DNA of 64,000 nucleotides from Auanema rhodensis (lineage: Eukaryota > Animalia > Nematoda), in assembly GCA_964057225.1 (NCBI GenBank), contig OZ059899.1, forward strand, positions 4,216,001-4,280,000, given 5' to 3'. Shown here in pieces: positions 345 through 26,300 of this stretch. Below the pieces are notes generated by a model. It did no database searches. It had not been told where the DNA came from and saw only the letters and a program-made list of their open reading frames with translations. Position 1 is the stretch's first letter. Each line of letters begins with the position of its first letter. A program made the translations under genes and the position numbers.

Positions 345-351
345 CTACTGT

Positions 352-2900: not shown

Positions 2901-2918
2901 ACATTCGACAGAATATAT

Positions 2919-4955: not shown

Positions 4956-5154
4956 TCTAATTTTTCTTTCAATCATTTTGTAAATTTCCTGAAAAAAAAA
5001 GTGAGTTTGTTCAAACTTGAAGAACCTCTTGATCAAAAATTTTAGTTGTGAATATTAATCTCCTAATCTAATTTTTGTTTCAATCATTTTGTAAATCTCC
5101 TGAAAAAAAATATAGAAAAGTAAAGAACTTGAAGAATAAAACCAAAACTACTGT

Positions 5155-5226
5155 TGGAGATATGGGGAATCGAACCCCAGACTTCTCGCATGCGAAGCGA
5201 GCGCTCTACCCCTGAGCTATATCCCC
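5155..5226 (-). tRNA. tRNA-Ala(CGC) anticodon variant
   Basis: The plus strand has atgcgaa at 5190-5196, giving the loop TT-CGC-AT. The rest matches the consensus. Confidence 0.85.
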
Positions 5227-8200
5227 ACATTTGACAGAATATATGACTGTGAGTTTGTTCAAACTTGAAAAACCTCTTGATCAAAAATTTTAGTTGTGAA
5301 TATTAATTTCCTAATCTAAGTTTTCTTTCAATCATTTTGTAAATTTCCTGAAAAAAAATTTATAAAAGTAAAGAACTTGAAGAATAAAACCAAAACTACT
5401 GTTGGAGATATGGGGAATCGAACCCCAGACTTCTCGCATGCAAAGCGAGCGCTCTACCCCTGAGCTATATCCCCACATTCGACAGAATATATGACTGTGA
5501 GTTTGTTCAAACTTGAAGAACCTCTTGATCAAAAATTTTAGTTGTGAATATTAATTTCCTAATCTAATTTTTCTTTCAATCATTTTGTAAATTTCCTGAA
5601 AAAAAATTTATAAAAGTAAAGAACTTGAAGAATAAAAGCAAAACTACTGTTGGAGATATGGGGAATCGAACCCCAGACTTCTCGCATGCAAAGCGAGCGC
5701 TCTACCCCTGAGCTATATCCCCACATTTGACAGAATATATGACTGTGAGTTTGTTCAAACTTGAAAAACCTCTTGATCAAAAATTTTAGTTGTGAATATT
5801 AATTTTCTAATCTAATTTTTGTTTCAATCATTTTGTAAATCTCCTGAAAAAAAATATAGAAAAGTAAAGAACTTGAAGAATAAAACCAAAACTACTGTTG
5901 GAGATATGGGGAATCGAACCCCAGACTTCTCGCATGCAAAGCGAGCGCTCTACCCCTGAGCTATATCCCCACATTCGACAGAATATATGACTGTGAGTTT
6001 GTTCAAACTTGAAGAACCTCTTGATCAAAAATTTTAGTTGTGAATATTAATTTCCTAATCTAATTTTTCTTTCAATCATTTTGTAAATTTCCTGAAAAAA
6101 AATTTATAAAAGTAAAGAACTTGAAGAATAAAACCAAAACTACTGTTGGAGATATGGGGAATCGAACCCCAGACTTCTCGCATGCAAAGCGAGCGCTCTA
6201 CCCCTGAGCTATATCCCCACATTTGACAGAATATATGACTGTGAGTTTGTTCAAACTTGAAAAACCTCTTGATCAAAAATTTTAGTTGTGAATATTAATT
6301 TTCTAATCTAATTTTTCTTTCAATCATTTTGTAAATCTCCTGAAAAAAAATATAGAAAAGTAAAGAACTTGAAGAATAAAACCAAAACTACTGTTGGAGA
6401 TATGGGGAATCGAACCCCAGACTTCTCGCATGCAAAGCGAGCGCTCTACCCCTGAGCTATATCCCCACATTTGACAGAATATATGACTGTGAGTTTGTTC
6501 AAACTTGAAAAACCTCTTGATCAAAAATTTTAGTTGTGAATATTAATTTCCTAATCTAAGTTTTCTTTCAATCATTTTGTAAATTTCCTGGAAAAAAATT
6601 TATAAAAGTAAAGAACTTGAAGAATAAAACCAAAACTACTGTTGGAGATATGGGGAATCGAACCCCAGACTTCTCGCATGCAAAGCGAGCGCTCTACCCC
6701 TGAGCTATATCCCCACATTCGACAGAATATATGACTGTGAGTTTGTTCAAACTTGAAGAACCTCTTGATCAAAAATTTTAGTTGTGAATATTAATTTCCT
6801 AATCTAATTTTTCTTTCAATCATTTTGTAAATTTCCTGAAAAAAAATTTATAAAAGTAAAGAACTTGAAGAATAAAACCAAAACTACTGTTGGAGATATG
6901 GGGAATCGAACCCCAGACTTCTCGCATGCAAAGCGAGCGCTCTACCCCTGAGCTATATCCCCACATTTGACAGAATATATGACTGTGAGTTTGTTCAAAC
7001 TTGAAAAACCTCTTGATCAAAAATTTTAGTTGTGAATATTAATTTTCTAATCTAATTTTTCTTTCAATCATTTTGTAAATCTCATGAAAAAAAATATAGA
7101 AAAGTAACGAACTTGAAGAATAAAACCAAAACTACTGTTGGAGATATGGGGAATCGAACCCCAGACTTCTCGCATGCAAAGCGAGCGCTCTACCCCTGAG
7201 CTATATCCCCACATTCGACAGAATATATGACTGTGAGTTTGTTCAAACTTGAAGAACCTCTTGATCAGAAATTTTAGTTGTGAATATTAATTACCTAATC
7301 TAATTTTTGTTTCAATCATTTTGTAAATTTCCTGAAAAAAAATATATAAAAGTAAAGAACTTGAAGAATAAAACCAAAACTACTGTTGGAGATATGGGGA
7401 ATCGAACCCCAGACTTCTCGCATGCAAAGCGAGCGCTCTACCCCTGAGCTATATCCCCACATTCGACAAAGTCAATGACTGTGAGTTTGTTCAAACTTGA
7501 AGAACCTCTTGATCAAAAATTTTAGTTGTGAATATTAATTTCCTAATCTAATTTTTCTTTCAATCATTTTGTAAATTTCCTGAAAAAAAATTTATAAAAG
7601 TAAAGAACTTGAAGAATAAAACCAAAACTACTGTTGGAGATATGGGGAATCGAACCCCAGACTTCTCGCATGCAAAGCGAGCGCTCTACCCCTGAGCTAT
7701 ATCCCCACATTCGACAGAATATATGACTGTGAGTTTGTTCAAACTTGAAGAACCTCTTGATCAAAAATTTTAGTTGTGAATATTAATCTCCTAATCTAAT
7801 TTTTGTTTCAATCATTTTGTAAATCTCCTGAAAAAAAATATAGAAAAGTAAAGAACTTGAAGAATAAAACCAAAACTACTGTTGGAGATATGGGGAATCG
7901 AACCCCAGACTTCTCGCATGCAAAGCGAGCGCTCTACCCCTGAGCTATATCCCCACATTTGACAGAATATATGACTGTGAGTTTGTTCAAACTTGAAGAA
8001 CCTCTTGATCAAAAATTTTAGTTGTGAATATTAATTTCCTAATCTAATTTTTCTTTCAATCATTTTGTAAATTTCCTGAAAAAAAATTTATAAAAGTAAA
8101 GAACTTGAAGAATAAAACCAAAACTACTGTTGGAGATATGGGGAATCGAACCCCAGACTTCTCGCATGCAAAGCGAGCGCTCTACCCCTGAGCTATATAT

Positions 8201-9865
8201 CCACATTTGACAGAATATATGACTGTGAGTTTGTTCAAACTTGAAAAACCTCTTGATCAAAAATTTTAGTTGTGAATATTAATTTCCTAATCTAATTTTT
8301 GTTTCAATCATTTTGTAAATCTCTTGAAAAAAAATATAGAAAAGTTAAGAACTCGAAGAATAAAACCAAAACTACTGTTGGAGATATGGGGAATCGAACC
8401 CCAGACTTCTCGCATGCAAAGCTAGCGCTCTACCCCTGAGCTATATCCCCACATTTGACAGAATATATGACTGTGAGTTTGTTCAAACTTGAAGAACCTC
8501 TTGATCAAAAATTTTAGTTGTGAATATTAATTTCCTAATCTAATTTTTCTTTCAATCATTTTGTAAATTTCCTGAAAAAAAATTTATAAAAGTAAAGAAC
8601 TTGAAGAATAAAACCAAAACTACTGTTGGAGATATGGGGAATCGAACCCCAGACTTCTCGCATGCAAAGCGAGCGCTCTACCCCTGAGCTATATCCCCAC
8701 ATTTGACAGAATATATGACTGTGAGTTTGTTCAAACTTGAAAAACCTCTTGATCAAAAATTTTAGTTGTGAATATTAATTTCCTAATGTAATTTTTGTTT
8801 CAATCATTTTGTAAATCTCTTGAAAAAAAATATAGAAAAGTTAAGAACTCGAAGAATAAAACCAAAACTACTGTTGGAGATATGGGGAATCGAACCCCAG
8901 ACTTCTCGCATGCAAAGCGAGCGCTCCACCCCTGAGCTATATCCCCACATTCGACAGAATATATGACTGTGAGTTTGTTCAAACTTGAAGAACCTCTTGA
9001 TCAGAAATTTTAGTTGTGAATATTAATTACCTAATCTAATTTTTGTTTCAATCATTTTGTAAATCTCCTGAAAAAAAATATATAAAAGTAACGAACTTGA
9101 AGAATAAAACCAAAACTACTGTTGGGATATGGGGAATCGAACCCCAGACTTCTCGCATGCAAAGCGAGCGCTCTACCCCTGAGCTATATCCCCACATTCG
9201 ACAAAGTCAATGACTGTGAGTTTGTTCAAACTTGAAGAACCTCTTGATCAAAAATTTTAGTTGTGAATATTAATTTCCTAATCTAATTTTTCTTTCAATC
9301 ATTTTGTAAATTTCCTGAAAAAAATTTTATAAAAGTAAAGAACTTGAAGAATAAAACCAAAACTACTGTTGGAGATATGGGGAATCGAACCCCAGACTTC
9401 TCGCATGCAAAGCGAGCGCTCTACCCCTGAGCTATATCCCCACATTCGACAGAATATATGACTGTGAGTTTGTTCAAACTTGAAGAACCTCTTGATCAAA
9501 AATTTTAGTTGTGAATATTAATCTCCTAATCTAATTTTTGTTTCAATCATTTTGTAAATCTCCTGAAAAAAAATATAGAAAAGTAAAGAACTTGAAGAAT
9601 AAAACCAAAACTACTGTTGGAGATATGGGGAATCGAACCCCAGACTTCTCGCATGCAAAGCGAGCGCTCTACCCCTGAGCCATATCCCCACATTTGACAG
9701 AATATATGACTGTGAGTTTGTTCAAACTTGAAGAACCTCTTGATCAAAAATTTTAGTTGTGAATATTAATTTCCTAATCTAATTTTTCTCACAATCATTT
9801 TGTAAATCTCCTGAAAAAAAATATAGAAAAGTAAAGAACTTGAAGAATAAAACCAAAACTACTGT

Positions 9866-9937
9866 TGGAGATATGAGGAATCGAACCCCAGACTTCTCGC
9901 ATGCAAAGCGAGCGCTCGACCCCTGAGCTATATCCCC
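9866..9937 (-). tRNA. tRNA-Ala(TGC) variant adjacent to provirus 1
   Basis: It carries the linked variants T-stem CCCCA>CCTCA and D-loop GGTAG>GGTCG. Confidence 0.85.
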
Positions 9938-10005
9938 ACATTTGACAGAATATATGACTGTGAGTTTGTTCAAACTTGAAGAACCTCTTGATCAAAAATT
10001 TTAGT

Positions 10006-10354
10006 CGTTCCGTTATGCTCCCGCGTCGATCTTACAGACCAATAGAGTCTACAAGATGAGCGTGGTAGTATTCCAGATGTAGCGGTTAAACATGGAGCAT
10101 AAGGATAAACATAAGACTCGAGAAAGATTGGTTTATTATATCTACGTGATTACAATAAGATACATATAACTAAGTAAAGGTTAAACTAATAGAGAACAGA
10201 GAGAGAACGACCAACCATCCATGATCGTCCCTGAGGCAAAGCTGAAGTGTTGTAATATGGAAAAGGGCGGGTCGTCTTCTCTCAGTCTCGCATTCTCTGA
10301 CTCTAACCCGCCTGCTACAGCTTCGTCATATGAATGTAATGCATTGATCATCCG
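10006..10354 (-). repeat. Extra outer 3' LTR (349 bp, lacking 9 bp at the U3 end)
   Basis: A direct copy of 10355-10712 missing the terminal aatggaacg, with one SNP (A at 10044). Confidence 0.95.
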
Positions 10355-10712
10355 CGTTCCGTTATGCTCCCGCGTCGATCTTACAGACCAATGGAGTCTA
10401 CAAGATGAGCGTGGTAGTATTCCAGATGTAGCGGTTAAACATGGAGCATAAGGATAAACATAAGACTCGAGAAAGATTGGTTTATTATATCTACGTGATT
10501 ACAATAAGATACATATAACTAAGTAAAGGTTAAACTAATAGAGAACAGAGAGAGAACGACCAACCATCCATGATCGTCCCTGAGGCAAAGCTGAAGTGTT
10601 GTAATATGGAAAAGGGCGGGTCGTCTTCTCTCAGTCTCGCATTCTCTGACTCTAACCCGCCTGCTACAGCTTCGTCATATGAATGTAATGCATTGATCAT
10701 CCGAATGGAACG
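10355..10712 (-). repeat. 3' LTR of provirus 1 (358 bp)
   Basis: Apparently identical to 19987-20344. It has a minus-strand AATAAA at 10481-10486 with a TATA-like motif about 30 nt upstream. Confidence 0.96.
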
Positions 10713-10723
10713 TGCCCTTTTTC
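10713..10723 (-). promoter_or_regulatory. Polypurine tract of provirus 1
   Basis: Minus-strand GAAAAAGGGCA abuts the 3' LTR. The equivalent in provirus 2 is GAAAAAATGGCA. Confidence 0.75.
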
Positions 10724-11409
10724 AAGTTTATGTCGCGTCCTCGCGACAATCAAAAGTTTTGACTTGATTAACTGTAGCAGAAGGGTTAATGTGTGTATTA
10801 AAGTACATGTTACAATACAATATTTTACGTAAAATTCTTATAATATGAACATAATACAATATAAAACATCAGTATCTGAAAAGAATTAAAAAAAATTTTT
10901 TAACCAAATTATGAAAGTTTTAACCCTCTTTAACGAATACTAGACTATGTTTTATTGGCGAACGTGCTTATAAAATAATAAAAAAAAAAAAAGTTTTTAA
11001 GCATAACGCTCCAACAAGTGTAGATAAAAAGTTAACTATTTTTTTGCTAGAGCTCGGTTGTTTGTTTCAATTTGTGTGAGTTTAGAAAAAAAAAGAAAAG
11101 TTTTGCGTAATACCAAATAACTTCCAAATTGAGTCATTGATTACTCAAGTGAAGACTGTTGCTCAGATATTGTTGCAAACTATGTCTTTCATTTTTCATC
11201 TCATCTAGTATGGGGAAGTTAGTTGAAATTAGGAAGGTTCGAACTATATGATAAAAGAATTATCTTCTCACATTTCCCGTGTTCATTATGCTCTAGTTTA
11301 CTTTTTGACTTAAGAGTGACTTGTTTTAGAGGAGTCGTTACAAAATTTGTGTTCTAGTATTACTTTAAAGAAAGTTATTACAAAACAATTTACAATAAAA
11401 TCTCATGAG

Positions 11410-14400
11410 TTAATGGTTTTTTCTTGATGGTAGCCAATTTGTATCCGAAAGGTCTTCTGGTTCGTCATAAGAGTCTTCCTCGTTGTTGTTTCCGTTGATA
11501 ACCTCTATGATTTCAATATCGCTGTCATCGTCTGAGCTGTCTGTACGTGTACTGGGCTTATGTGCGATTCCGTCATCTGTTTCTCGATTAAATAATTTGA
11601 GATTGTCCTTGTGAACGTCTTGAATCTTTCCGAAAAGGTTTTTGATTTGAACCATGTTTCCCTTCACATTTATAACTTCAAATGGTCCATCATAAGCTTT
11701 CCGAAGCTTTTGTCCTGGCTTGTGCATTTTCACAGCTAACATAACGCAGTCTCCTTCTTGTATATCTCTTTCGTGAGTGCGTAATCGAGCATCATGTTTC
11801 TTTTTTGCTAATTCTTGATGCTTTTCCAAATTTTCTTGAATGATTGTTTTCTGTTTGCTTCGGATTTTCTCAATATTTTCAATCTCCTTTGAAATTTCCT
11901 TTGGTTCAGTTGTTTCGGGGTATAAATCTTTATCCAATCTCAAACGGCTTTCTTTCCCGAATAGTACAACGTATGGTGATATTCCTGTGGTTGCATGCGT
12001 TGTGGTGTTCAATGCAAAGGTAATTTTTGGCAAAAACATGTCCCAATCAGTGACATCTTCGTTGAGATAATGTGTGAGTCCTTCTTCTAACGTTCTATGA
12101 AGTCTTTCTACTTGTCCATTGGAATTCTTCTGATGTGGGAGTGTTGATTCATGTTTGATACCGAGTTTTTCGCACATGTCTTCAAATTTCCTTGATAGGA
12201 AGTTGGAACCGCGGTCTGTTATTAAGCGATTCGGTGGTCCATAGACATATACAAAGTTTCTGAGGAATCTATCAATGACAACTTCACTAACAATTGTTGG
12301 TATGGCGATAGTTGTAGCCCATTTGGAGAAAGAGTCTTGTATTGTGAGGACATAGCTGTTGTTCCTTTTTGATGTTGGGAATGGTCCCATGATATCCATA
12401 TGTATTCTCTCAAATGGTTTTGATGGTATGTTAAATTGACCCATCGGTTGTACGGTCATAGCATGAGGATCTTTCTTTCGTTGTGCACATTTGATGCACT
12501 GTTTTACGTATTTTGCTATGTCGTTCTGCATGTTAGTCCAGGAAAATCTTCGTACTATGGCTTCTTTTGTTTTGTTGATTCCTTGATGCGCCCCGATTGT
12601 TGGGTCTTCATGAAATTCTTCAATGATTTTGTTAATTATATCACTATCCGATGGCAATATTAACGCTGGATGAGGTCTTTTGACGCTTGGTTTTGTGTAG
12701 AGTAAGTTGTTTATAACACAATAACGATCATTTTGAATCATATTTTTCTTCGTTCTGTATTCAATCTCAGCTATTGTTCTCTTGATCCAAGGAGTATTTT
12801 GTTGGATTGAGCTGAATTCTGGTAACTTCACAACATTTACTTGTTGTGTCTCAATTTTCTCTTTCGAATTCGTCTTTTGTTTCTTGTTCGACGTCTTTGG
12901 ATCGTTAGCTTCATCTCCAATGTATCTAGAGAGTGCGTCACAGACTTTGTTTAATCTGCCTTCTCGATATTTGATCTCAATATCGTATTCCTGTATGACC
13001 AATTGGAACTTTGCTAGTCTTCCAAATAGGTCTCTTCTAGTTAGTAAGCTTGTCAATGGGCGATGATCGGTGATGCAAATTGAATGTGATCCAAGTATGT
13101 ATGTTCGAAACTGTGCTAGAGCGTAAACTAAGCCTAAGGCTTCTATCTCTATGGGAGCATAGTTACGTTCTGCTTTTACTAATTTCCTACTTGCGAAAGC
13201 AATTGGATGTAAGTTCTTGAATGGTTCGTTTGGATCTTCGCGCTGCAGTAATACTGCGCCTATGGCGATGTTGCTGCCATCACTTTCAATGATGAAAGTT
13301 CGGTCTGATCGTGGTGGTTTCAGTACCGGTGCTTCGATTAGTCGTTCCTTTAGCTTATCTAGTGAACGTTGACATTCGCTAGTCCAATTGAAGTCTGCGT
13401 CTAGCTTAGTAAGGTCATACAGCGGACTTGCTATATGTGCAAAATCTTTAATAAATTTTCTAAAGAATCCGACCATTCCTAAGAATGCTCTTACTCCTGT
13501 GGGTGTTTGAGGAGCAGGGTAATCGCGGATGGCGGAAACTTTCTGTTGATCGGGCTTAACTCCGTCTCTTCCGACAATGAGTCCGAGAAATTTCACTTCT
13601 GGTCTTGCAAATGAACATTTCTTGAGTTTAATCTTAAATCCTAGTCTTTCTACAGCGAGTAATACTTCTTTGATGTCTTCGAGGTGTTGTTCTGCGCTGT
13701 CTGATATGACTAGTAAATCGTCCAAATAGACAAATAGTCGGCATTTACATTTACTTTGGAGATATCTCACGGCTGTTTGAAAGGTATGTGGCGCACCACA
13801 TAATCCCATAGGCATTCTCCTGTATTGATAAGTCCCACTATTGGTGGTAAAGGATGTGAGTGGTCTATCCTTCTTCAATAATGGTATTTGGAAAAAGCCA
13901 GAAACAAGATCAAAATTAGAAAAGTATTGTGATCCAGCCGCTAAGTCAATGATATCAGAGATGTTAGGAATCACATATGTTTGTTTTCTTGTAACGTTAT
14001 TTAAGGCTCGGAAATCCGTAACGAAACGGAATGTTTCGTCTTTTTTCTTAACGAGAACGACAGGGCTGTTGAACAAAGATGTCGATCGTTCTATTATCCC
14101 TTGCTCGAGCATTTCTTGGACTTGTCTTTCTACCTCTTCTTGTTTCCCGAGAGGTATACGTGAAATTCGTGGCTTTGGCATATCCATATCCGTTCGTAGT
14201 GGTATCTTGTGTTCTACTGGTCCTTTGAACAATCCTATCTTTTTATCTTCATTGAGGAATGCCTTCTTACGCTGACGAATGATGTTTCGTAGTTCGTCTT
14301 TTTGTCGTTGCGTAAGATCAGCCTCTTTTAGGTCAAGTTCTTTCATGAAATCACCAGGGAAGTGAGGTAATTTGCCTTCCCAGTCTGCTTCTGGTGGAAT

Positions 14401-17400
14401 ATAGTCGTACTGTTGTTCTGTTGAGAAGATTTCATAGTCCGGTATAGATCCTATTTCGGCTTCTGCAATCACAGTGCCGGCCAGTATTTCTATGAATTCT
14501 TTAGAATTGTTCCGGAATTGGATATTGATGGAGTTAACATCGCGAAATGCTGTGTCGTATCGAGGTGAGAGAGGAGTATTGTCGTTTGGTTTAATCATAG
14601 CGATTAAGTCTTCTCCGATTGGGTTCTCTAATTGGACTTGGAAATTAAAAACTTGTCGAGGAAGTAGACTCCGCGGCTCCAAGGTTATCAAATTAACAGT
14701 TTTTGATATCCTGTTAATATCCCCGTTAATTCCGCTAGCCAAAGGTACTACATGATTTCCAATTTCCAGTGTTCTTTTGTATGGTCTTAGTTTCATGCCA
14801 ATGTTTTGACAGTCAAGTGTTTTCATGAAATCTAATCCAATCAACGCTGGCGATGGACAGTCTTTGTCGTCTGATATGAAGAATGTATGGTCGATTTCGT
14901 AACCGGCTATTTCGACGGTTAAGTCGATAGTACCAATGAATACAAATTCTGATCCGTTCGCTGTTGTTGCTCTTAATGTATTCTTCTTAACAAAGTCATT
15001 CAAAGCTAAGTAGTGTAGTGTCGATATTCTTATGTAACTGACTAAAAATATTTCCAATAATAATTTCTTTGAAAGATTGCTGGGCTTGATCAGCTTAGGG
15101 TGTGGACCGATCGGTATTCCATAATTATTCTTCCTGTCATAAAATAGTTTATCTGTATTTGGCATGAATTGTCGTGATGCTGGCAATTTTATAAATTTTC
15201 TGTCATCAATAAATGCTGCAGTTTTATTCCATCGTACTGTTGTGAGGGTTTTTAGTTCTCTTAGTAAATTGATCGTTGCCTTAATGAATTCGCTTTTCTT
15301 CTCTTCCTCGTCAGTTAGTATACGTTTCCTTATTGGTGGCATTTGTATGAACGTTTGTAGGACTTCTTGTCGTGATGGAACTGTCAATCCTTCTTCAATT
15401 ATAACTGGTGTATTGGTTAAATTGAGAGCTATGCTTTCAATTCGTTCGCGATATGAACCTTCTTTCTTCCTTATGATTTCATCGAATTCGATTACTGTCA
15501 AACGATCTGATATTTGTTCGAGAAGCTGTTCAGATGTTAAGTATGATATTGCTGCCTTTGTAGTAATGGCTAATTCTCTTTGTGCTATATAATATAGCAG
15601 AGCTTCTTCTTTATCACTGAAATCGTATTGCTTGAGAAAATGTCGAACAGAATGTTCATTTATTTGAATTCTGAAGAAAAATTCGAATTTTTCTTTATGT
15701 GATGTTATCCATGCCTTTAGAGAGTATGTTGGATCTACTAAACGTCTTCCTTTGATTATAGGAATAATTGAAGTAATACCGGGATTACTCATTAATGGTC
15801 TTAGGAAAGAATATGGACAGACGTGAAGCAATACTGTTTCATAATCACAGACGTGAAGCAATACTGTTTCATAATCTTCAACTTCGTTGATCCGATCTTG
15901 ATCCAGTGGGAAAGAACATCCTTCGGTGACTGCACGTTTTGGTCTTTTAAACGGCAGCTTTTTGAACTCTCTTTCAATAAGGGTGGTTATATTGTTGTCG
16001 TTTGGAAATTTAGGAAGAATGATATAATTTCCTGATGTCGTATGGAACGCTGGCTGCCTGAAGCAAGAAGAAATAGGTTTCGGAGTTGGTTTGCTCGAAA
16101 GAATAAGTGCCGATTGTGTACTAGGGATTAAAATAGTATCTTGACTAATGATAGCGTCATATGTATGCATATCTATGTAATTACAACGTGAAGCAGTGGT
16201 TTGTGGGTCCCATATTATTATTGATGTACTTGATTCACAATTACCATGATGTGCATTGCATCCTTCCGTGTTTAATATTAAGTTTGACAATATTGTATCG
16301 TCAGGCATACGGGTCATGACTCCGCGCTCTAATATTAGACGTGACCGCTCCTCGCATGCGTCGCGGTTGAACGCGCGCGCTGGGTCATAGGAGGGCTCCG
16401 GAGTTGCTTGGGTGATACTATCAATGCGTTGCAGTTCTATGTTATTCCACTTGCGATCGCGGATCGCCTGTCTGCATTCGCGCTCTCCTATAGGCTGTAT
16501 TCTATTTATTGTTCTGTTCGTATCGCGGAGGAATAGCAGGTCTCGTACGCATAACTTGTGTACTTCCTCTGAACAACGCCACGCATCCCATTCGTGTGCT
16601 GTGTGATTTCTTGTGTACAGATGAACTTCTGTACGTAGCACATGGTTTTTTTCTGTTAATCTGCATTTTCTGATTGTTGGTGGCATAAGTAATGCGCCTC
16701 CTGTTGCTCTTGTACAGATTTGATATGTAGATGCACAGGGCAAGAATATTGCTGCTGTTATTGCCATGATAACTGTGAGCGTCAAAGGCGAAAGGGTGAC
16801 AGAGTTTATTCTTGTTGAGCTTCTATCTCTTCCTCTTGAGTTGTCTCTTGGATTTTTGAATTGAACTCTTCTTTGTCCGTTGTTGTTATTGAATCTACCT
16901 CGTTGGTTGTTATGACGAAAATTATAATTTCTTTGATGCCAATCAGAACTCGATTGCCTATTATCTTGTTCGTTATAATTTGTACGGCGATTATTATTAG
17001 CGAAAGAACCGTAACGGTTTCGATTATTATTGAAATTAGAAAAGTTTTTATTTTTTTGATAATTTTGATAATTTTGATTATTTTGATAATTTTGATTATT
17101 TCTTATCATTTGGTTATCGCGTTGATAATTGCGATTAAATGTTTGGCTATCTCGTCTCTCATCATTACGCGCAAAGGGTGCTAGTGCTTTGTTCACAGCG
17201 TTGACCAACATCGATTGCGTGTCTGTTGTTTGGTTCACTATCGATTCCTCCCAGCGAGCTGCTTCAATCGCTTCTGTGAAGGATTTTGGCTTTGCTCGGA
17301 TCACAGCTGGTTTTAGAGAATTTTTAAGTCTTCTGAGGAATGTTGATCTCAGTATTTGATCTTTATGTGGGTCATCAGATGCAAATGCACTCAATGCCAT

Positions 17401-18477
17401 TGTTCTTAATGCTTGGGCGTATGCATCAATTGTCAATTCCCCTTGCGTGGTGTTTTGAAGGTTAATAAGTGCAGGGTCTTGGTTATATTCAGGGCAGAGC
17501 TTCGATGTTAGTGCTCTAATCAGATCATTCCACGAACCAGTTGTTTTAAGTTGTTCAGGAACTTGTCTGTAAGCTTCTTCTGCTGCTTCTTTTTTGAGAA
17601 GCAAAGGAAGAAGTGCTAACCTTTCAGGGATAACAAGGCCAATGGCATTAGCAAACAAGTTGAATTTACCCGTAAAATCACGGAAGTTACGACTGCCGTC
17701 GTAAGTTGGACAGTAAGGCGAAAGTAAGGCTTGCGCGATTGTTGTTTTCCCTGCCCCAGGTAGTGAGGAAACAGCTTCCGTCATGATGTTATTCGTACGG
17801 GTAGATGGTATTTTGATCGTTCTACCTGTTATTGGTGGGGTCTCCAAAATAGGGGTTGTTTGCGTGGATGGAATAGGTCTATTGGGTGCCTTAGGAAGTG
17901 AGTCTGTTGTTGTTAAGATGGGAGTAGAAGTTTGATGAATACTGGTATTTGGTGCAGGTGGTTGAATTGGTGAGATATTAATGTTAGGGACTGACGAATA
18001 TCTGCTTTTGCGCTTGGTGTTGAAAGTTTTATCTTTAGGCGAAAGGTTAAAAAGATCAGTAACAATGTTTCTAAGAGAACTAAGCCCACCCGCGCTAGAA
18101 GTTTTTGAAAGTAAAGGGGAATCGGTTGGTTCGGTTAGTGAGAGAGAGAGAGAAGCGTCGCTGATGTTTTGATTTTTCTTATTTTTATTAGAATTAGAGG
18201 AGCGTACCTTTTTAGGAGTGATCGGTGTTTGTTCCTCCACAATGATTGATAGTTCTTCTTCTATAGTAGGTACGTAGTCCGGGTCGCCTAGTTGTTCAGT
18301 AGGTGAGACAGAATCAGTAGTAGGAATAAGGAAATTATCCGGCTTCTTGTCGACTTTCTGCTCCTCTTCTAATATAGCGACGTCTTGAGCTCGAGCTCGA
18401 CTTCTGGTAAAGGGAGCTGAGTCTTGGGAATCGAAATGCGTACTTATAGGTACGGCTGAATGGAATCTCTTAGCCAC
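11410..18477 (-). CDS. Single gag-env-like-(pro)-pol polyprotein, up to 2355 aa (first in-frame ATG at 17784)
   Basis: The Gag capsid-like core lies at about 17710-17245 (YDG..F..F, QG..TIDAY, PKSFTEAIEAA). An N/R/Q-rich region follows, then a signal peptide and Cys-rich ectodomain (about 16795-15934). Next come the C-terminal half of the protease (TANG, IGLDF; about 15040-14815), RT (SPVVLVKKK, DFRALN, MPMGL, YLDD at 13717-13728) and RNase H (ESDGS, EALG, TDH, DALSR). The integrase shows H..H..CIKC, MDIMG, TDRG, GQVER and GPF. The annotated start is a GTG. Confidence 0.93.
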   Translation of the reverse strand: MAKRFHSAVPISTHFDSQDSAPFTRSRARAQDVAILEEEQKVDKKPDNFLIPTTDSVSPTEQLGDPDYVPTIEEELSIIVEEQTPITPKKVRSSNSNKNKKNQNISDASLSLSLTEPTDSPLLSKTSSAGGLSSLRNIVTDLFNLSPKDKTFNTKRKSRYSSVPNINISPIQPPAPNTSIHQTSTPILTTTDSLPKAPNRPIPSTQTTPILETPPITGRTIKIPSTRTNNIMTEAVSSLPGAGKTTIAQALLSPYCPTYDGSRNFRDFTGKFNLFANAIGLVIPERLALLPLLLKKEAAEEAYRQVPEQLKTTGSWNDLIRALTSKLCPEYNQDPALINLQNTTQGELTIDAYAQALRTMALSAFASDDPHKDQILRSTFLRRLKNSLKPAVIRAKPKSFTEAIEAARWEESIVNQTTDTQSMLVNAVNKALAPFARNDERRDSQTFNRNYQRDNQMIRNNQNYQNNQNYQNYQKNKNFSNFNNNRNRYGSFANNNRRTNYNEQDNRQSSSDWHQRNYNFRHNNQRGRFNNNNGQRRVQFKNPRDNSRGRDRSSTRINSVTLSPLTLTVIMAITAAIFLPCASTYQICTRATGGALLMPPTIRKCRLTEKNHVLRTEVHLYTRNHTAHEWDAWRCSEEVHKLCVRDLLFLRDTNRTINRIQPIGERECRQAIRDRKWNNIELQRIDSITQATPEPSYDPARAFNRDACEERSRLILERGVMTRMPDDTILSNLILNTEGCNAHHGNCESSTSIIIWDPQTTASRCNYIDMHTYDAIISQDTILIPSTQSALILSSKPTPKPISSCFRQPAFHTTSGNYIILPKFPNDNNITTLIEREFKKLPFKRPKRAVTEGCSFPLDQDRINEVEDYETVLLHVCDYETVLLHVCPYSFLRPLMSNPGITSIIPIIKGRRLVDPTYSLKAWITSHKEKFEFFFRIQINEHSVRHFLKQYDFSDKEEALLYYIAQRELAITTKAAISYLTSEQLLEQISDRLTVIEFDEIIRKKEGSYRERIESIALNLTNTPVIIEEGLTVPSRQEVLQTFIQMPPIRKRILTDEEEKKSEFIKATINLLRELKTLTTVRWNKTAAFIDDRKFIKLPASRQFMPNTDKLFYDRKNNYGIPIGPHPKLIKPSNLSKKLLLEIFLVSYIRISTLHYLALNDFVKKNTLRATTANGSEFVFIGTIDLTVEIAGYEIDHTFFISDDKDCPSPALIGLDFMKTLDCQNIGMKLRPYKRTLEIGNHVVPLASGINGDINRISKTVNLITLEPRSLLPRQVFNFQVQLENPIGEDLIAMIKPNDNTPLSPRYDTAFRDVNSINIQFRNNSKEFIEILAGTVIAEAEIGSIPDYEIFSTEQQYDYIPPEADWEGKLPHFPGDFMKELDLKEADLTQRQKDELRNIIRQRKKAFLNEDKKIGLFKGPVEHKIPLRTDMDMPKPRISRIPLGKQEEVERQVQEMLEQGIIERSTSLFNSPVVLVKKKDETFRFVTDFRALNNVTRKQTYVIPNISDIIDLAAGSQYFSNFDLVSGFFQIPLLKKDRPLTSFTTNSGTYQYRRMPMGLCGAPHTFQTAVRYLQSKCKCRLFVYLDDLLVISDSAEQHLEDIKEVLLAVERLGFKIKLKKCSFARPEVKFLGLIVGRDGVKPDQQKVSAIRDYPAPQTPTGVRAFLGMVGFFRKFIKDFAHIASPLYDLTKLDADFNWTSECQRSLDKLKERLIEAPVLKPPRSDRTFIIESDGSNIAIGAVLLQREDPNEPFKNLHPIAFASRKLVKAERNYAPIEIEALGLVYALAQFRTYILGSHSICITDHRPLTSLLTRRDLFGRLAKFQLVIQEYDIEIKYREGRLNKVCDALSRYIGDEANDPKTSNKKQKTNSKEKIETQQVNVVKLPEFSSIQQNTPWIKRTIAEIEYRTKKNMIQNDRYCVINNLLYTKPSVKRPHPALILPSDSDIINKIIEEFHEDPTIGAHQGINKTKEAIVRRFSWTNMQNDIAKYVKQCIKCAQRKKDPHAMTVQPMGQFNIPSKPFERIHMDIMGPFPTSKRNNSYVLTIQDSFSKWATTIAIPTIVSEVVIDRFLRNFVYVYGPPNRLITDRGSNFLSRKFEDMCEKLGIKHESTLPHQKNSNGQVERLHRTLEEGLTHYLNEDVTDWDMFLPKITFALNTTTHATTGISPYVVLFGKESRLRLDKDLYPETTEPKEISKEIENIEKIRSKQKTIIQENLEKHQELAKKKHDARLRTHERDIQEGDCVMLAVKMHKPGQKLRKAYDGPFEVINVKGNMVQIKNLFGKIQDVHKDNLKLFNRETDDGIAHKPSTRTDSSDDDSDIEIIEVINGNNNEEDSYDEPEDLSDTNWLPSRKNH
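15817..15876. repeat. Perfect 30-bp in-frame tandem duplication (DYETVLLHVC x2)
   Basis: acagacgtgaagcaatactgtttcataatc occurs twice. Provirus 2 has a single homologous copy. Confidence 0.95.
15934..16797 (-). other. Env-like glycoprotein domain within the polyprotein
   Basis: A hydrophobic signal-like segment LTLTVIMAITAAIFLPCAST precedes about 264 aa with 10 Cys and the sequons NHT, NRT and NIT. It ends in the furin-type motif KRPKR. All of these are conserved in provirus 2. Confidence 0.72.
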
Positions 18478-19973
18478 CTTGCTAGAACTCTTGGTTTGAA
18501 AAAACCTTGAGTGCTTGGTAACGTGTGGGATGTTGAGACGTTAAAGAATGCGGTGAATAAAGATGAGGATGTAGGCAAAATGAGAAAGGCTTTGGAGAGC
18601 GACCGGTGTCGTATCGACAACTTGTGAGAATGAGGTCGATGCCTTGGCCAATGGCGATGGATCCGCCTTCTACTGTGTGATATCGGGACTCTGGTGCTCT
18701 CCGTATTTTCTCTGTAGTTGAAAATCTGATTCACAAAACATCTGGGGTGACCAAGCTGTTATTTTACAAAACGTTTAGTGTAATTCGTAATATTCGTTCA
18801 ATTACAGCACATTTTACTGATTTGTATGCAACCATTTTCCTCATGCTGACTAAACTTATGTTTTGTTACACTAGTTTCTCGACCATGTGGTGTGTCATCT
18901 TGCAACAAAACTTATGATGTAATTCGTAACATGCTTTTGATAAAAGAGCAGTTTAACAATAAATGTGCACCAATTTCTCTTTTGTGACCAAAAATAATTT
19001 TTGTTTCTTTACAATCTGGTTTTCAAATACATTTGGTGTAGCTCGCATGTTTCGTTGTAACAAAAGTCATGGGATTCGTAATATTAGTTTTACAAAAGAG
19101 CGTTTCGCAATGATGAATGTAGGTATTTCGTGATCAGAAATCGAATTTTGAAATAAAAGCAGAGTTAAATGGCTAAATATTACAAGAACTAGTATTAAAG
19201 TTGGAATAAGGTTCAATGCGTGAGTCTTATGCTTCTGAACAACAATAACGGTATGAGGAAGGTGACATTCAGTAAGGGGAGAAAATCCAAACCGATATGC
19301 TTTAGCCAACACGACCTGTGTTAATCATGATTCAAATTCGAGATAACATTTTTCAACAGGATTTTTCGGACTATAGCGATCTATAAATTAACAATCCTCC
19401 CTTTTTGGTGAGGTTTCCCGTGTAATTTTTTTCATGCGTACTGATTATAAATTTAGGATGTTAGAAGCAAAATTTGTCTGAACGAAATCGTAACGCAAAA
19501 TAAAATAGTCCTGATCGCAAAACAAACTTCATCCACGAAATATAAAGATATAACCGAAGTTATTCTTTCCTTGAAGCCAAAATTAATCCTTAAAAAGGAG
19601 AAAGCGTGGGAAATACAAAATAACAATTACTTTAGGTGAATTTGTTCACTAATTCAGCCTAAAGCCCTCATCAAGCTTCAAGGTTGGGTAACAGAGCATT
19701 TCAGATGTTATAAGCAAGGATACGAAATTTAAAGGTTCAGACGAAAGAATTTTTGTGAACAAACGGGAAAATAATAATCTCGAAACGTATAATCCTTCTT
19801 TAAAAAAAAAAAAGGATTCGTTGCCTCTGTTCCCATTTAACGTTGTTGGCCCCTCCGTATTGTGTTAAGACATAGAGTAGATGGTATGAGAAAAAGAGAG
19901 ATGAAAGAAATTTTAAAAGGAATTAACAACACGAACATTATAGAGAAGGAAAAAAAAATTGTGATAAGTTCGA

Positions 19974-19986
19974 GGTGGAACCTCCA
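19974..19986 (-). promoter_or_regulatory. Primer-binding site complementary to tRNA-Gln
   Basis: Minus-strand TGGAGGTTCCACC lies directly after the 5' LTR. It is complementary to the conserved animal tRNA-Gln 3' end GGTGGAACCT-CCA. Confidence 0.88.
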
Positions 19987-20344
19987 CGTTCCGTTATGCT
20001 CCCGCGTCGATCTTACAGACCAATGGAGTCTACAAGATGAGCGTGGTAGTATTCCAGATGTAGCGGTTAAACATGGAGCATAAGGATAAACATAAGACTC
20101 GAGAAAGATTGGTTTATTATATCTACGTGATTACAATAAGATACATATAACTAAGTAAAGGTTAAACTAATAGAGAACAGAGAGAGAACGACCAACCATC
20201 CATGATCGTCCCTGAGGCAAAGCTGAAGTGTTGTAATATGGAAAAGGGCGGGTCGTCTTCTCTCAGTCTCGCATTCTCTGACTCTAACCCGCCTGCTACA
20301 GCTTCGTCATATGAATGTAATGCATTGATCATCCGAATGGAACG
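19987..20344 (-). repeat. 5' LTR of provirus 1 (358 bp)
   Basis: Direct repeat of 10355-10712, bounded by the PBS and the TSD. Confidence 0.96.
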
Positions 20345-23300
20345 TAGTTGTGAATATTAATCTCCTAATCTAATTTTTGTTTCAATCATTTTGTAAATCT
20401 CTTGAAAAAAAATATAGAAAAGTTAAGAACTCGAAGAATAAAACCAAAACTACTGTTGGAGATATGGGGAATCGAACCCCAGACTTCTCGCATGCAAAGC
20501 TAGCGCTCTACCCCTGAGCTATATCCCCACATTTGACAGAATATATGACTGTGAGTTTGTTCAAACTTGAAGAACCTCTTGATCAAAAATTTTAGTTGTG
20601 AATATTAATTTCCTAATCTAATTTTTCTTTCAATCATTTTGTAAATTTCCTGAAAAAAAATTTATAAAAGTAAAGAACTTGAAGAATAAAACCAAAACTA
20701 CTGTTGGAGATATGGGGAATCGAACACCAGACTTCTCGCATGCAAAGCGAGCGCTCTACCCCTGAGCTATATCCCCACATTTGACAGAATATATGACTGT
20801 GAGTTTGTTCAAACTTGAAGAACCTCTTGATCAAAAATTTTAGTTGTGAATATTAATTTCCTAATCTAATTTTTCTTTCAATCATTTTGTAAATTTCCTG
20901 AAAAAAAATTTATAAAAGTAAAGAACTTGAAGAATAAAACCAAAACTACTGTTGGAGATATGGGGAATCGAACACCAGACTTCTCGCATGCAAAGCGAGG
21001 GCTCTACCCCTGAGCTATATCCCCACATTCGACAGAATATATGACTGTGAGTTTGTTCAAACTTGAAGAACCTCTTGATCAAAAATTTTAGTTGTGAATA
21101 TTAATCTCCTAATCTAATTTTTATTTCAATCATTTTGTAAATTTCCTGAAAAAAAATTTATAAAAGTAAAGAACTTGAAGAATAAAACCAAAACTACTGT
21201 TGGAGATATGGGGAATCGAACCCCAGACTTCTCGCATGCAAAGCGAGCGCTCTACCCCTGAGCTATATCCTCACATTTGACAGAATATATGACTGTGAGT
21301 TTGTTCAAACTTGAAGAACCTCTTGATCAAAAATTTTAGTTGTGAATATTAATCTCCTAATCTAATTTTTGTTTCAATCATTTTGTAAATCTCCTGAAAA
21401 AAAAATATAGAAAAGTAAAGAACTTGAAGAATAAAAGCAAAACTACTGTTGGAGATATGGGGAATCGAACCCCAGACTTCTCGCATGCAAAGCGAGCGCT
21501 CTACCCCTGAGCTATATCCCCACATTCGACAGAATATATGACTGTGAGTTTGTTCAAACTTGAAGAACCTCTTGATCAAAAATTTTAGTTGTGAATATTA
21601 ATCTCCTAATCTAATTTTTGTTTCAATCATTTTGTAAATCTCTTGAAAAAAATATAGAAAAGCAAAGAACTTGAAGAATAAAACCAAAACTACTGTTGGA
21701 GATATGGGGAATCGAACCCCAGACTTCTCGCATGCAAAGCGAGCGCTCTACCCCTGAGCTATATCCCCACATTCGACAGAATATATGACTGTGAGTTTGT
21801 TCAAACTTGAAGAACCTCTTGATCAGAAATTTTAGTTGTGAATATTAATTTTCTAATCTAATTTTTCTTTCAATCATTTTGTAAATCTCCTGAAAAAAAA
21901 TATATAAAAGTAAAGAACTTGAAGAATAAAACCAAAACTACTGTTGGAGATATGGGGAATCGAACCCCAGACTTCTGGCATGCAAAGCGAGCGCTCTACC
22001 CCTGAGCTATATCCCCACATTCGACAAAGTCAATGACTGTGAGTTTGTTCAAACTTGAAGAACCTCTTGATCAAAAATTTTAGTTGTGAATATTAATTTC
22101 CTAATCTAATTTTTCTTTCAATCATTTTGTAAATTTCCTGAAAAAAAATATAGAAAAGTAAAGAACTTGAAAAATAAAACCAAAACTACTGTTGGAGATA
22201 TGGGGAATCGAACCCCAGACTTCTCGCATGCAAAGCTAGCGCTCTACCCCTGAGCTATATCCCCACATTTGACAGAATATATGACTGTGAGTTTGTTCAA
22301 ACTTGAAGAACCTCTTGATCAAAAATTTTAGTTGTGAATATTAATTTCCTAATCTAATTTTTCTTTCAATCATTTTGTAAATTTCCTGAAAAAAAATTTA
22401 TAAAAGTAAAGAACTTGAAGAATAAAACCAAAACTACTGTTGGAGATATGGGGAATCGAACCCCAGACTTCTCGCATGCAAAGCGAGCGCTCTACCCCTG
22501 AGCTATATCCCCACATTCGACAGAATATATGACTGTGAGTTTGTTCAAACTTGAAGAACCTCTTGATCAAAAATTTTAGTTGTGAATATTAATCTCCTAA
22601 TCTAATTTTTGTTTCAATCATTTTGTAAATCTCCTGAAAAAAAATATAGTAAAGTAAAGAACTTGAAGAATAAAACCAAAACTACTGTTGGAGATATGGG
22701 GAATCGAACCCCAGACTTCTCGCATGCAAAGCGAGCGCTCTACCCCTGAGCTATATCCTCACATTTGACAGAATATATGACTGTGAGTTTGTTCAAACTT
22801 GAAAAACCTCTTGATCAAAAATTTTAGTTGTGAATATTAATTTCCTAATCTAATTTTTCTTTCAATCATTTTGTAAATTTCCTGAAAAAAAATTTATAAA
22901 AGTAAAGAACTTGAAGAATAAAACCAAAACTACTGTTGGAGATATGGGGAATCGAACCCCAGACTTCTCGCATGCAAAGCGAGCGCTCTACCCCTGAGCT
23001 ATATCCCCACATTTGACAGAATATATGACTGTGAGTTTGTTCAAACTTGAAGAACCTCTTGATCAAAAATTTTAGTTGTGAATATTAATTTCCTAATCTA
23101 ATTTTTGTTTCAATCATTTTGTAAATCTCCTGAAAAAAAATATAGAAAAGTAAAGAACTTGAAGAATAAAACCAAAACTACTGTTGGAGATATGGGGAAT
23201 CGAACCCCAGACTTCTCGCATGCAAAGCTAGCGCTCTACCCCTGAGCTATATCCCCACATTTGACAGAATATATGACTGTGAGTTTGTTCAAACTTGAAG

Positions 23301-26300
23301 AACCTCTTGATCAAAAATTTTAGTTGTGAATATTAATTTCCTAATCTAATTTTTCTTTCAATCATTTTGTAAATTTCCTGAAAAAAAATTTATAAAAGTA
23401 AAGAACTTGAAGAATAAAACCAAAACTACTGTTGGAGATATGGGGAATCGAACCCCAGACTTCTCGCATGCAAAGCGAGCGCTCTACCCCTGAGCTATAT
23501 CCCCACATTCGACAGAATATATGACTGTGAGTTTGTTCAAACTTGAAGAACCTCTTGATCAAAAATTTTAGTTGTGAATATTAATCTCCTAATCTAATTT
23601 TTGTTTCAATCATTTTGTAAATCTCCTGAAAAAAAATATAGAAAAGTAAAGAACTTGAAGAATAAAACCAAAACTACTGTTGGAGATATGGGGAATCGAA
23701 CCCCAGACTTCTCGCATGCAAAGCGAGCGCTCTACCCCTGAGCTATATCCTCACATTTGACAGAATATATGACTGTGAGTTTGTTCAAACTTGAAAAACC
23801 TCTTGATCAAAAATTTTAGTTGTGAATATTAATTTCCTAATCTAATTTTTCTTTCAATCATTTTGTAAATTTCCTGAAAAAAAATTTATAAAAGTAAAGA
23901 ACTTGAAGAATAAAACCAAAACTACTGTTGGAGATATGGGGAATCGAACCCCAGACTTCTCGCATGCAAAGCGAGCGCTCTACCCCTGAGCTATATCCCC
24001 ACATTTGACAGAATATATGACTGTGAGTTTGTTCAAACTTGAAGAACCTCTTGATCAAAAATTTTAGTTGTGAATATTAATTTCCTAATCTAATTTTTGT
24101 TTCAATCATTTTGTAAATCTCCTGAAAAAAAATATAGAAAAGTAAAGAACTTGAAGAATAAAACCAAAACTACTGTTGGAGATATGGGGAATCGAACCCC
24201 AGACTTCTCGCATGCAAAGCGAGCGCTCTACCCCTGAGCTATATCCCCACATTTGACAGAATATATGACTGTGAGTTTGTTCAAACTTGAAGAACCTCTT
24301 GATCAAAAATTTTAGTTGTGAATATTAATCTCCTAATCTAATTTTTGTTTCAATCATTTTGTAAATCTCTTGAAAAAAATATAGAAAAGTTAAGAACTCG
24401 AAGAATAAAACCAAAACTACTGTTGGAGATATGGGGAATCGAACCCCAGACTTCTCGCATGCAAAGCGAGCGCTCTACCCCTGAGCTATATCCCCACATT
24501 CGACAGAATATATGACTGTGAGTTTGTTCAAACTTGAAGAACCTCTTGATCAAAAATTTTAGTTGTGAATATTAATTTCCTAATCTAATTTTTCTTTCAA
24601 TCATTTTGTAAATTTCCTGAAAAAAAATATAGAAAAGTAAAGAACTTGAAAAATAAAACCAAAACTACTGTTGGAGATATGGGGAATCGAACCCCAGACT
24701 TCTCGCATGCAAAGCTAGCGCTCTACCCCTGAGCTATATCCCCACATTTGACAGAATATATGACTGTGAGTTTGTTCAAACTTGAAGAACCTCTTGATCA
24801 AAAATTTTAGTTGTGAATATTAATTTCCTAATCTAATTTTTCTTTCAATCATTTTGTAAATTTCCTGAAAAAAAATTTATAAAAGTAAAGAACTTGAAGA
24901 ATAAAACCAAAACTACTGTTGGAGATATGGGGAATCGAACCCCAGACTTCTCGCATGCAAAGCGAGCGCTCTACCCCTGAGCTATATCCCCACATTCGAC
25001 AGAATATATGACTGTGAGTTTGTTCAAACTTGAAGAACCTCTTGATCAAAAATTTTAGTTGTGAATATTAATCTCCTAATCTAATTTTTGTTTCAATCAT
25101 TTTGTAAATCTCCTGAAAAAAAATATAGAAAAGTAAAGAACTTGAAGAATAAAACCAAAACTACTGTTGGAGATATGGGGAATCGAACCCCAGACTTCTC
25201 GCATGCAAAGCGAGCGCTCTACCCCTGAGCTATATCCTCACATTTGACAGAATATATGACTGTGAGTTTGTTCAAACTTGAAAAACCTCTTGATCAAAAA
25301 TTTTAGTTGTGAATATTAATTTCCTAATCTAATTTTTCTTTCAATCATTTTGTAAATTTCCTGAAAAAAAATTTATAAAAGTAAAGAACTTGAAGAATAA
25401 AACCAAAACTACTGTTGGAGATATGGGGAATCGAACCCCAGACTTCTCGCATGCAAAGCGAGCGCTCTACCCCTGAGCTATATCCCCACATTTGACAGAA
25501 TATATGACTGTGAGTTTGTTCAAACTTGAAGAACCTCTTGATCAAAAATTTTAGTTGTGAATATTAATTTCCTAATCTAATTTTTGTTTCAATCATTTTG
25601 TAAATCTCCTGAAAAAAAATATAGAAAAGTAAAGAACTTGAAGAATAAAACCAAAACTACTGTTGGAGATATGGGGGAATCGAACCCCAGACTTCTCGCA
25701 TGCAAAGCGAGCGCTCTACCCCTGAGCTATATCCCCACATTTGACAGAATATATGACTGTGAGTTTGTTCAAACTTGAAGAACCTCTTGATCAAAAATTT
25801 TAGTTGTGAATATTAATCTCCTAATCTAATTTTTGTTTCAATCATTTTGTAAATCTCTTGAAAAAAATATAGAAAAGTTAAGAACTCGAAGAATAAAACC
25901 AAAACTACTGTTGGAGATATGGGGAATCGAACCCCAGACTTCTCGCATGCAAAGCGAGCGCTCTACCCCTGAGCTATATCCCCACATTCGACAGAATATA
26001 TGACTGTGAGTTTGTTCAAACTTGAAGAACCTCTTGATCAAAAATTTTAGTTGTGAATATTAATTTCCTAATCTAATTTTTCTTTCAATCATTTTGTAAA
26101 TTTCCTGAAAAAAAATATAGAAAAGTAAAGAACTTGAAAAATAAAACCAAAACTACTGTTGGAGATATGGGGAATCGAACCCCAGACTTCTCGCATGCAA
26201 AGCTAGCGCTCTACCCCTGAGCTATATCCCCACATTTGACAGAATATATGACTGTGAGTTTGTTCAAACTTGAAGAACCTCTTGATCAAAAATTTTAGTT

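What the first reader, a model, noticed from the sequence alone, without database searches (positions are those of the whole stretch)
14815..17784. Env-like glycoprotein embedded between Gag and protease in one continuous ORF (gag-env-pro-pol)
Seen: after Gag come an internal signal-peptide-like stretch, a 10-Cys ectodomain with 3 N-glycosylation sequons and a furin-type site KRPKR (15934-15948). About 300 further aa precede the protease remnant. The Cys residues, sequons and furin site are all conserved in the diverged provirus 2, which suggests selection. Known: retroviruses and errantiviruses place env after pol. From memory, a nematode Metaviridae clade (NERV) has been described with a gag-env-pro-pol ORF and an RNA-virus-derived glycoprotein. 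Inference: these are two new subfamilies of such potentially infectious endogenous retroviruses.
Basis: partly seen in the sequence, partly recalled or inferred. Interest (0 to 1): 0.85.

Follow-up and report, generated by a model that had tools for sequence, protein, structure and literature searches.

The report
Broken envelope-carrying nematode retrotransposon copy
This is a recently inserted copy of an already described kind of worm retrotransposon that carries a virus-type membrane-fusion gene between its capsid and enzyme genes, but this copy has lost half of that gene and its protease active site, so it likely cannot spread on its own.

Summary
One 2124-codon ORF (17784-11410, minus strand) reads gag, internal hydrophobic signal-like stretch, 10-Cys ectodomain, KRPKR, about 300 aa, protease remnant, RT, RNase H, integrase. 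The ectodomain folds confidently (pLDDT 92) as domains I-II of a class III fusogen (herpes gB, mononegavirus G), and it evolved under purifying selection between the two families in the window (dN/dS 0.06). This gag-env-pol layout is already published for nematodes (Sacco 2022; eLife 2026, 36 elements), with the same tRNA-Gln primer site. The second half of env, its membrane anchor and the protease catalytic motif are absent. A contig of a run holding this family has 1668 more bases at 15042/15043. The neighbouring provirus has two larger deletions. Neither is a candidate infectious provirus. What may be new: a conserved, roughly 270-aa helical domain after the furin-type site with no fold match, seen in full only in Auanema elements and one unnamed record; LTRs ending CG...CG; insertion into a 192-copy tRNA-Ala array; a hint of a spliced accessory transcript. 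Verdict: new, defective member of a known kind.

The parts
19987..20344 (-). 5' LTR of provirus 1 (358 bp; ends CGTTCC...GGAACG), identical to the 3' LTR; 4-bp target-site duplication ACTA
   Evidence: 0 differences in 359 positions compared
19974..19986 (-). Primer-binding site; its 12-mer is the tRNA-Gln 12-mer listed for two published Caenorhabditis gag-env-pol elements
17785..18540 (-). 252-codon open frame without ATG upstream of and in frame with gag, with a splice-donor-like site after 18208; possible exon of an accessory transcript (inferred)
16810..17784 (-). gag (residues 1-325): capsid domain, then an R/N/Q-rich basic region; no Cys between residues 98 and 349, so no zinc knuckle
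16729..16785 (-). Internal signal-peptide-like hydrophobic stretch (residues 334-352)
   Evidence: SignalP not available
15934..16728 (-). Env N-terminal half (residues 353-617): predicted class III fusogen domains I (fusion) and II (PH-like), 10 Cys, 3 sequons, ending in KRPKR
15043..15933 (-). About 270-aa predicted helical domain of unknown fold plus start of linker (residues 618-914); holds a 30-bp tandem duplication absent from the contigs of three runs
15042..15043 (.). In-frame break: env C-terminal half, membrane anchor and protease catalytic motif are missing here
14785..15042 (-). Protease remnant (residues 915 to about 1000) without the D[TS]G motif
11410..14784 (-). Rest of pol: RT (YLDD at 1353), RNase H, integrase (zinc finger, core, weak SH3-like hit)
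10355..10712 (-). 3' LTR of provirus 1
10006..10354 (-). Extra tandem LTR copy lacking the first 9 bases; 1 difference in 349
46250..51534 (-). Provirus 2 (second family; LTRs 2 differences in 337; TSD CTCC) with two internal deletions, at about 50667/50668 and about 48380
1..64000 (-). Host context: tandem array of 192 tRNA-Ala genes in a 248-bp unit, interrupted by four LTR insertions

Best explanation
This is a recently inserted, internally deleted copy of a nematode Ty3/gypsy element of the published gag-env-pol type, whose envelope is predicted to be a class III (gB/mononegavirus G-like) fusogen and which likely cannot replicate or infect unaided. How the complete family would work (inferred from anatomy and from general knowledge of polyprotein topology): one polyprotein is made. 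Gag stays in the cytosol. The internal signal sends Env into the ER, where it is cut free, glycosylated and disulphide-bonded. A membrane anchor at the end of Env stops transfer, so protease, RT and integrase stay in the cytosol and are released by the protease. A furin-type cut follows domain II. This gives equal amounts of Gag, Env and Pol without splicing or frameshift. In this copy the anchor, the trimer-forming half of Env and the catalytic Asp are absent (shown). It is therefore predicted to make no fusogen and no active protease, and without a stop-transfer segment its RT and integrase would follow the ectodomain into the ER. It could move only as cargo of complete relatives. The selection signal on env reflects the active lineages, not this copy.
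For: Fold: model pLDDT 92.3, pTM 0.75. Foldseek top hits are herpes gB in PDB (E 2e-10) and Keturi virus, Beihai rhabdo-like virus 3 and Nyavirus glycoproteins in BFVD (E 1.6e-13 to 7.8e-12). In the VIA-align search the top six and nine of the top ten rows are class III fusogens or their domains; best Z 11.3, and HCMV gB Z 10.8, rmsd 4.2 over 216 residues. A profile of 75 relatives matches rabies G 53-183 (E 0.0065) in its N-half and gB (E 5e-13) further on. Architecture: all 20 relatives with both an env hit and a gypsy-type RT hit have env before RT; named ones are from Auanema, Caenorhabditis, Acrobeloides and Aphelenchus. RT tree: sister to a C. japonica element, 99/98. Break: the closest relative P0001 (58% identical in the env N-half) has about 560 aa more, with Monjiviricetes_fusion and Glycoprotein_B hits, a hydrophobic anchor and WDSG. 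Five queries for that half give no tblastn hit under E 4.9 in the window, while the control gives 1e-121. 16 of 17 relatives have an anchor-strength segment and 12 of 17 match a protease motif pattern; this copy has neither. One contig of run X3 has 1668 other letters between 15042 and 15043, and listed contigs of X1 and X2 stop matching at exactly that place; X9 shows nothing listed there. dN/dS between the families: env N-half 0.061, insert 0.166, capsid 0.027, integrase 0.083. Identical LTRs.
Against: No listed contig of the four runs spans the break as the window has it, so the deletion could be an assembly error of the window; the runs are short-read contigs that drop rare copies, so this is not decisive. 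Signal peptide, topology, furin cleavage and protease inactivity are inferred, not run through predictors or tested. Pfam finds nothing on the env N-half alone, and the Atlas score was 0.89 with low recognition, a lead only. Foldseek TM-scores are moderate (0.5-0.6). Synonymous distances are near saturation (dS 1.0-1.4), so the ratios are rough. The RT tree has 14 rows, no outgroup and no sequence taken from the NERV paper.
Confidence: 0.88

Rival explanations
1. The break is an assembly artefact and the real locus is a complete, possibly active envelope-carrying element.
For: LTRs are identical and the 2124-codon frame has no stop. The contigs of three runs at this place agree with a longer form, and none listed shows the window's junction. 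The copy sits in a repeat array that is hard to assemble.
Against: The window also holds a second element with two deletions, a tandem LTR and a 30-bp duplication. Another deleted form of this family (joint 12045-17425) shows in all four runs, so deleted copies are common in this family. No repeat at the junction that would mislead an assembler was seen (only the window's side could be looked at).
Confidence: 0.07
2. The shortened form is a maintained non-autonomous or interfering variant: it keeps the frame open and would secrete a soluble Env fragment (domains I-II plus the helical domain) that blocks entry by complete elements, like env-derived restriction factors of vertebrates (recalled).
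For: Both copies in the window keep gag capsid, signal, env N-half and most of the helical domain in frame and lose what follows. The deletion in provirus 1 is a multiple of three.
Against: The two break points differ. One in three random deletions keeps frame. Provirus 2 has lost its gag start. No contig shows either junction at depth. A copy with identical LTRs is too young for an open frame to show selection.
Confidence: 0.04
3. The Cys-rich region is a captured host domain and not an envelope protein.
For: No Pfam hit on the region itself; cellular PH domains appear in the structure list at Z 4-5.
Against: Class III fusogens rank far above cellular PH domains. Relatives continue into gB/Monjiviricetes fusion domains and an anchor.
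Confidence: 0.01

Closest known systems
[quoted passage not shown] Clat_errantivirus_4, Ctro_errantivirus_1, Cbre_errantivirus_2)
   Same: Order gag-env-pol; gB-type fold; signal before the ectodomain; the same tRNA-Gln 12-mer as Clat_4 and Ctro_1; by eye the same eight-Cys spacing in domains I-II. My second-best env hit P0003 (34% to this env) is by eye close to Clat_4.
   Different: That list holds elements with uninterrupted ORFs and env with an anchor; this copy is deleted. No Auanema element is in the list, though the screen table shows ENV-POL hits in two Auanema assemblies. The sections and passages I read do not mention a helical domain after the furin site, CG...CG ends or insertion in tRNA arrays.
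Non-canonical nematode endogenous retroviruses
   Same: By its title and the eLife citation: a metavirus that captured an RNA-virus glycoprotein, with env before pol. Best viral structural matches here are negative-strand RNA virus glycoproteins.
   Different: The paper is not held, so its defining clade and hosts could not be compared. This copy is defective.
BEL/Pao elements with chuvirus-like or gB-like env (Dezordi 2020, as cited in PMC13524379) and Atlas virus (listing only)
   Same: Invertebrate LTR elements with a captured viral fusogen; P0042, a Pao element among my hits, carries a homologous env.
   Different: BEL/Pao pol, env after pol; Atlas has a phlebovirus-like envelope.
C. elegans Cer1 and its spliced accessory protein CERV (PMC10309623)
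   Same: Nematode Ty3/gypsy element with a spliced mRNA that joins 5' exons to a 3' region; a similar splice is hinted here.
   Different: Cer1's extra ORF lies after pol and does not resemble env; sequence likeness to CERV was not tested.

Membership tests
Ty3/gypsy (Metaviridae) LTR element | LTRs, primer-binding site, target-site duplication, pol order PR-RT-RH-IN | tested here: met
Nematode GAG-ENV-POL gB-type elements (PMC13524379; Sacco 2022) | env placed between gag and pol | tested here: met
Nematode GAG-ENV-POL gB-type elements (PMC13524379; Sacco 2022) | Class III (HSV/gB-type) fold of ENV | tested here: met
   Domains I-II only. Domains III-V are absent from this copy and present in relatives.
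Nematode GAG-ENV-POL gB-type elements (PMC13524379; Sacco 2022) | Nematoda C1 cysteine pattern | tested here: inconclusive
   Matches by eye to the 18 C1 rows seen in the supplement; not aligned by program, and sub-type a or d not determined.
Nematode GAG-ENV-POL gB-type elements (PMC13524379; Sacco 2022) | tRNA-Gln primer site as in the Caenorhabditis members | tested here: met
   12-mer identical to that listed for Clat_4 and Ctro_1
Nematode GAG-ENV-POL gB-type elements (PMC13524379; Sacco 2022) | RT groups with the published members | tested here: inconclusive
   Groups with Caenorhabditis env-before-RT elements, one of them probably Cbre_2; no outgroup and no sequences from the papers in the tree.
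Intact env-carrying element (potentially infectious) | Complete ectodomain followed by a transmembrane anchor | tested here: not met
Intact env-carrying element (potentially infectious) | Protease with catalytic D[TS]G | tested here: not met
   alignment
Intact env-carrying element (potentially infectious) | Enveloped particles that enter cells | not testable with these tools
   no experimental data

The most novel reading that the evidence does not exclude
The Auanema branch of these nematode retroviruses has built a new, independently folded helical domain of about 270 aa into its class III fusogen, behind a furin-type site and in front of the trimer-forming helix, where it works as a receptor-binding or shielding subunit that no known class III fusogen has. 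The same elements integrate with CG...CG ends into tandem tRNA arrays that, in Auanema rhodense, are reported among germline-restricted DNA, which would make them envelope-carrying viruses hidden from the soma.
Probability: 0.2. Interest if true: 0.6.

Novelty: new member of a known kind. Interest (0 to 1): 0.3.

Why it matters
As an architecture it adds little: gag-env-pol elements with gB-type envelopes are published for nematodes, and this copy is broken. It does show that a family with this layout transposed very recently in a worm probably related to Auanema (identical LTRs), so whether such envelopes make infectious particles could be asked in a small free-living nematode. The conserved helical domain inside the envelope has no structural match; if it proves part of the fusogen it would extend what class III fusion proteins can carry. 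The clustering in a tRNA array raises the question of tRNA-gene targeting in an animal LTR element.

Tried and rejected
Pfam on the env N-half alone: no family. Helical domain: no BFVD match under E 0.35; best VIA-align Z 5.5 over 64 residues to death domains, within the range of common helical arrangements and rejected as an assignment; Atlas best 0.77 (DUF8422), below use. None of this shows the fold is new. Searches for shorter homologues and longer ones with the insert alignment (which only looked at proteins of 2917 aa or more) found nothing; both are weak. The insert profile was built from an alignment that held full-length proteins; its hits on its own members, and on P0002 and P0003 in gag, were not counted. 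Only P0009 (E 3e-5) and P0007 (E 3e-4) are independent hits at the right place. No whole genome is held for this window, so copy number and genome-wide insertion sites could not be counted. No RNA holder was listed for provirus 1; this is no evidence on expression. Fixed-distance tRNA targeting as in yeast Ty3 (recalled) was rejected: the four insertions lie 17, 67, 91 and 180 bases before the next tRNA gene, one of them at a tRNA 3' end. Sacco et al. 2022 could not be read; the phrase gag-env-pro-pol was in none of the 10 listed papers. Earlier findings of the scan: three look-ups, nothing shown.

Full report
Observation. The window is a tandem array of 192 tRNA-Ala genes in a 248-bp unit with four non-array stretches. 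The largest, 10006-20344 on the minus strand, is an LTR element with identical 358-bp LTRs, an extra tandem LTR at its 3' end, a 4-bp target-site duplication and a primer site. Its single ORF of 2124 codons reads capsid, a basic R/N-rich region, about 590 residues with no informative Pfam hit (two chance-level hits at E 0.2 or worse), then protease remnant, RT, RNase H and integrase.

What the middle part is. A search of 1.84 billion cluster representatives gave 120 hits. Twenty were looked up: 15 carry a nematode name (Auanema, Caenorhabditis, Acrobeloides, Aphelenchus), one is named without a host and four are unnamed. The closest relative, P0001, is from Auanema sp. JU1783, 58% identical over residues 335-620. 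With 75 aligned sequences, residues 353-617 fold at pLDDT 92.3. The model matches herpes gB (E 2e-10), glycoproteins of negative-strand RNA viruses (E 1.6e-13), and in a Foldseek-independent search gB, Chandipura G, thogotovirus glycoproteins and rabies G, the best six well above cellular PH domains. It is domains I and II of a class III fusogen. A hydrophobic stretch precedes the ectodomain in 72 of 80 relatives (control 0 of 80), and a furin-type motif follows domain II in 43 of 82 (background 74 of 1300). All 20 relatives with both an env hit and a gypsy-type RT hit have env before RT. Between the two families in the window dN/dS is 0.061 for the env N-half, similar to integrase (0.083), with dS near saturation.

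What is missing. P0001 continues for about 560 residues that this copy lacks: the part that matches Monjiviricetes_fusion and Glycoprotein_B, a hydrophobic anchor, and the protease start with WDSG. Five queries for that half find nothing in the window, against a positive control at 1e-121. The ORF has no D[TS]G and no anchor-strength segment after the signal, whereas 16 of 17 relatives have such a segment and 12 of 17 match the protease pattern; three of the five misses are proteins that end before the protease. Public DNA runs hold the family (11 of 14 listed rows, 3 studies). In run X3 one contig has 1668 other letters between 15042 and 15043, and listed contigs of X1 and X2 stop matching at that same place; X9 lists nothing there. 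So the family's common form is longer and this copy has an in-frame break that removes half of env and the protease active site at once. No listed contig shows the window's junction, which leaves a small chance of assembly error. Provirus 2 lacks the gag start and everything from mid-env to the start of integrase, and contigs of its family run on unlike the window at both places. Another deleted form of family 1 shows in all four runs.

The 300 residues after KRPKR. These are not the rest of the fusogen. They are predicted to form a helical domain (pLDDT 74, pTM 0.74 from 10 sequences) with dN/dS 0.166. No structural match was found. Direct sequence hits to it came from Auanema proteins (P0001, P0005, P0010, P0018, P0019) and two short proteins not looked up. 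An unnamed record, P0002, looks similar by eye, and the first 75 or so residues match two Caenorhabditis elements weakly. Among 58 proteins with both env halves, the spacer between domain II and the C-terminal half ranges from about none to about 465 residues, so inserts at this place are common and vary. Its role is unexplained.

Mechanism. Shown: layout, predicted fold of domains I-II, selection in the lineage, the break. Inferred: in the complete family an internal signal and a downstream anchor thread Env through the ER membrane while Gag and Pol stay cytosolic; signal peptidase, a furin-type protease and the element's own protease separate the parts. This copy would make no fusogen and no active protease, and its Pol would likely be mis-sorted, so it is a passenger.

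Comparison with what is known. The eLife 2026 paper PMC13524379 (passages, section 6 in full, parts of four to five supplement files seen) reports that nematode, bryozoan and flatworm elements carry only gB-type ENV in the order GAG-ENV-POL. It lists 36 nematode elements (30 rows seen) and cites Sacco et al. 2022 for the flipped order; that paper I saw only as a citation. The primer-site 12-mer here is the tRNA-Gln 12-mer listed for two Caenorhabditis elements. The RT is sister to a C. japonica element (99/98) in a 14-row tree without outgroup; relatives whose RT match was shorter than 300 residues were left out. The paper's master table has no Auanema element, but its screen table records ENV-POL hits in two Auanema assemblies. 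Six paper searches turned up no description of the helical domain, the CG...CG ends or tRNA-array insertion for these elements; subscription papers and the unread supplement parts may hold it.

Host context. The host is not given; the nearest relatives point to an Auanema-like nematode (inference). A 2026 preprint on A. rhodense (10.64898/2026.08.27.747507; passages seen, supplements closed) reports 19,554 tRNA loci, tandem tRNA arrays among the germline-restricted repeats, and transposon genes enriched in eliminated DNA. Whether this array is one of them was not tested.

Verdict. A real envelope gene in a published arrangement, in a young but broken copy. New member of a known kind; interest 0.3, carried mainly by the unexplained helical domain and the tRNA-array setting.

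Noticed in passing
window 1-64000: Tandem array of 192 tRNA-Ala genes (191 TGC, 1 CGC) in a 248-bp unit, all on the minus strand in the part listed; possibly one of the germline-restricted tRNA arrays reported for Auanema rhodense.
   Followed up: partly
window 19987-20344, 46250-51534, 4619-4955: LTRs of both families end 5'-CGTTCC...GGAACG-3' rather than TG...CA (usual ends recalled), each with a 4-bp target-site duplication.
   Followed up: partly
window 2919-3299: Unrelated 381-bp solo-LTR-like insertion with ends CG...CA on the minus strand (TG...CG on the plus) and a 4-bp duplication ATAT, 17 bases before a tRNA gene.
   Followed up: no
window 51534: Provirus 2 is inserted at the 3' end of a tRNA-Ala gene; the duplicated target CTCC is part of the gene's last bases.
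   Followed up: partly
window 17785-18540 and 47561: Contigs of two possibly-RNA runs leave provirus 2 at 47561 next to an AG and continue in sequence that by eye resembles the provirus 1 leader just before a GT donor-like site at 18207. This hints at a spliced transcript joining a leader exon to the 3' end of pol, reminiscent of Cer1 CERV. The runs' RNA label is a guess.
   Followed up: partly
window 10006-10354: Second, nearly complete LTR in tandem behind the 3' LTR of provirus 1, with the target-site duplication outside it.
   Followed up: no
window about 15817-15846: 30-bp tandem duplication (10 codons) in the helical domain, absent from contigs of runs X1, X2 and X3.
   Followed up: no
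window 12045-17425: A joint skipping 5379 bases (gag start to late integrase) appears in all four DNA runs laid, with short sides of 25-26 letters: probably another deleted derivative of family 1.
   Followed up: no
P0042 (residues 1988-2467): A BEL/Pao polyprotein carries a homologous class III env after pol, so the same envelope type sits in two LTR superfamilies in different positions.
   Followed up: no
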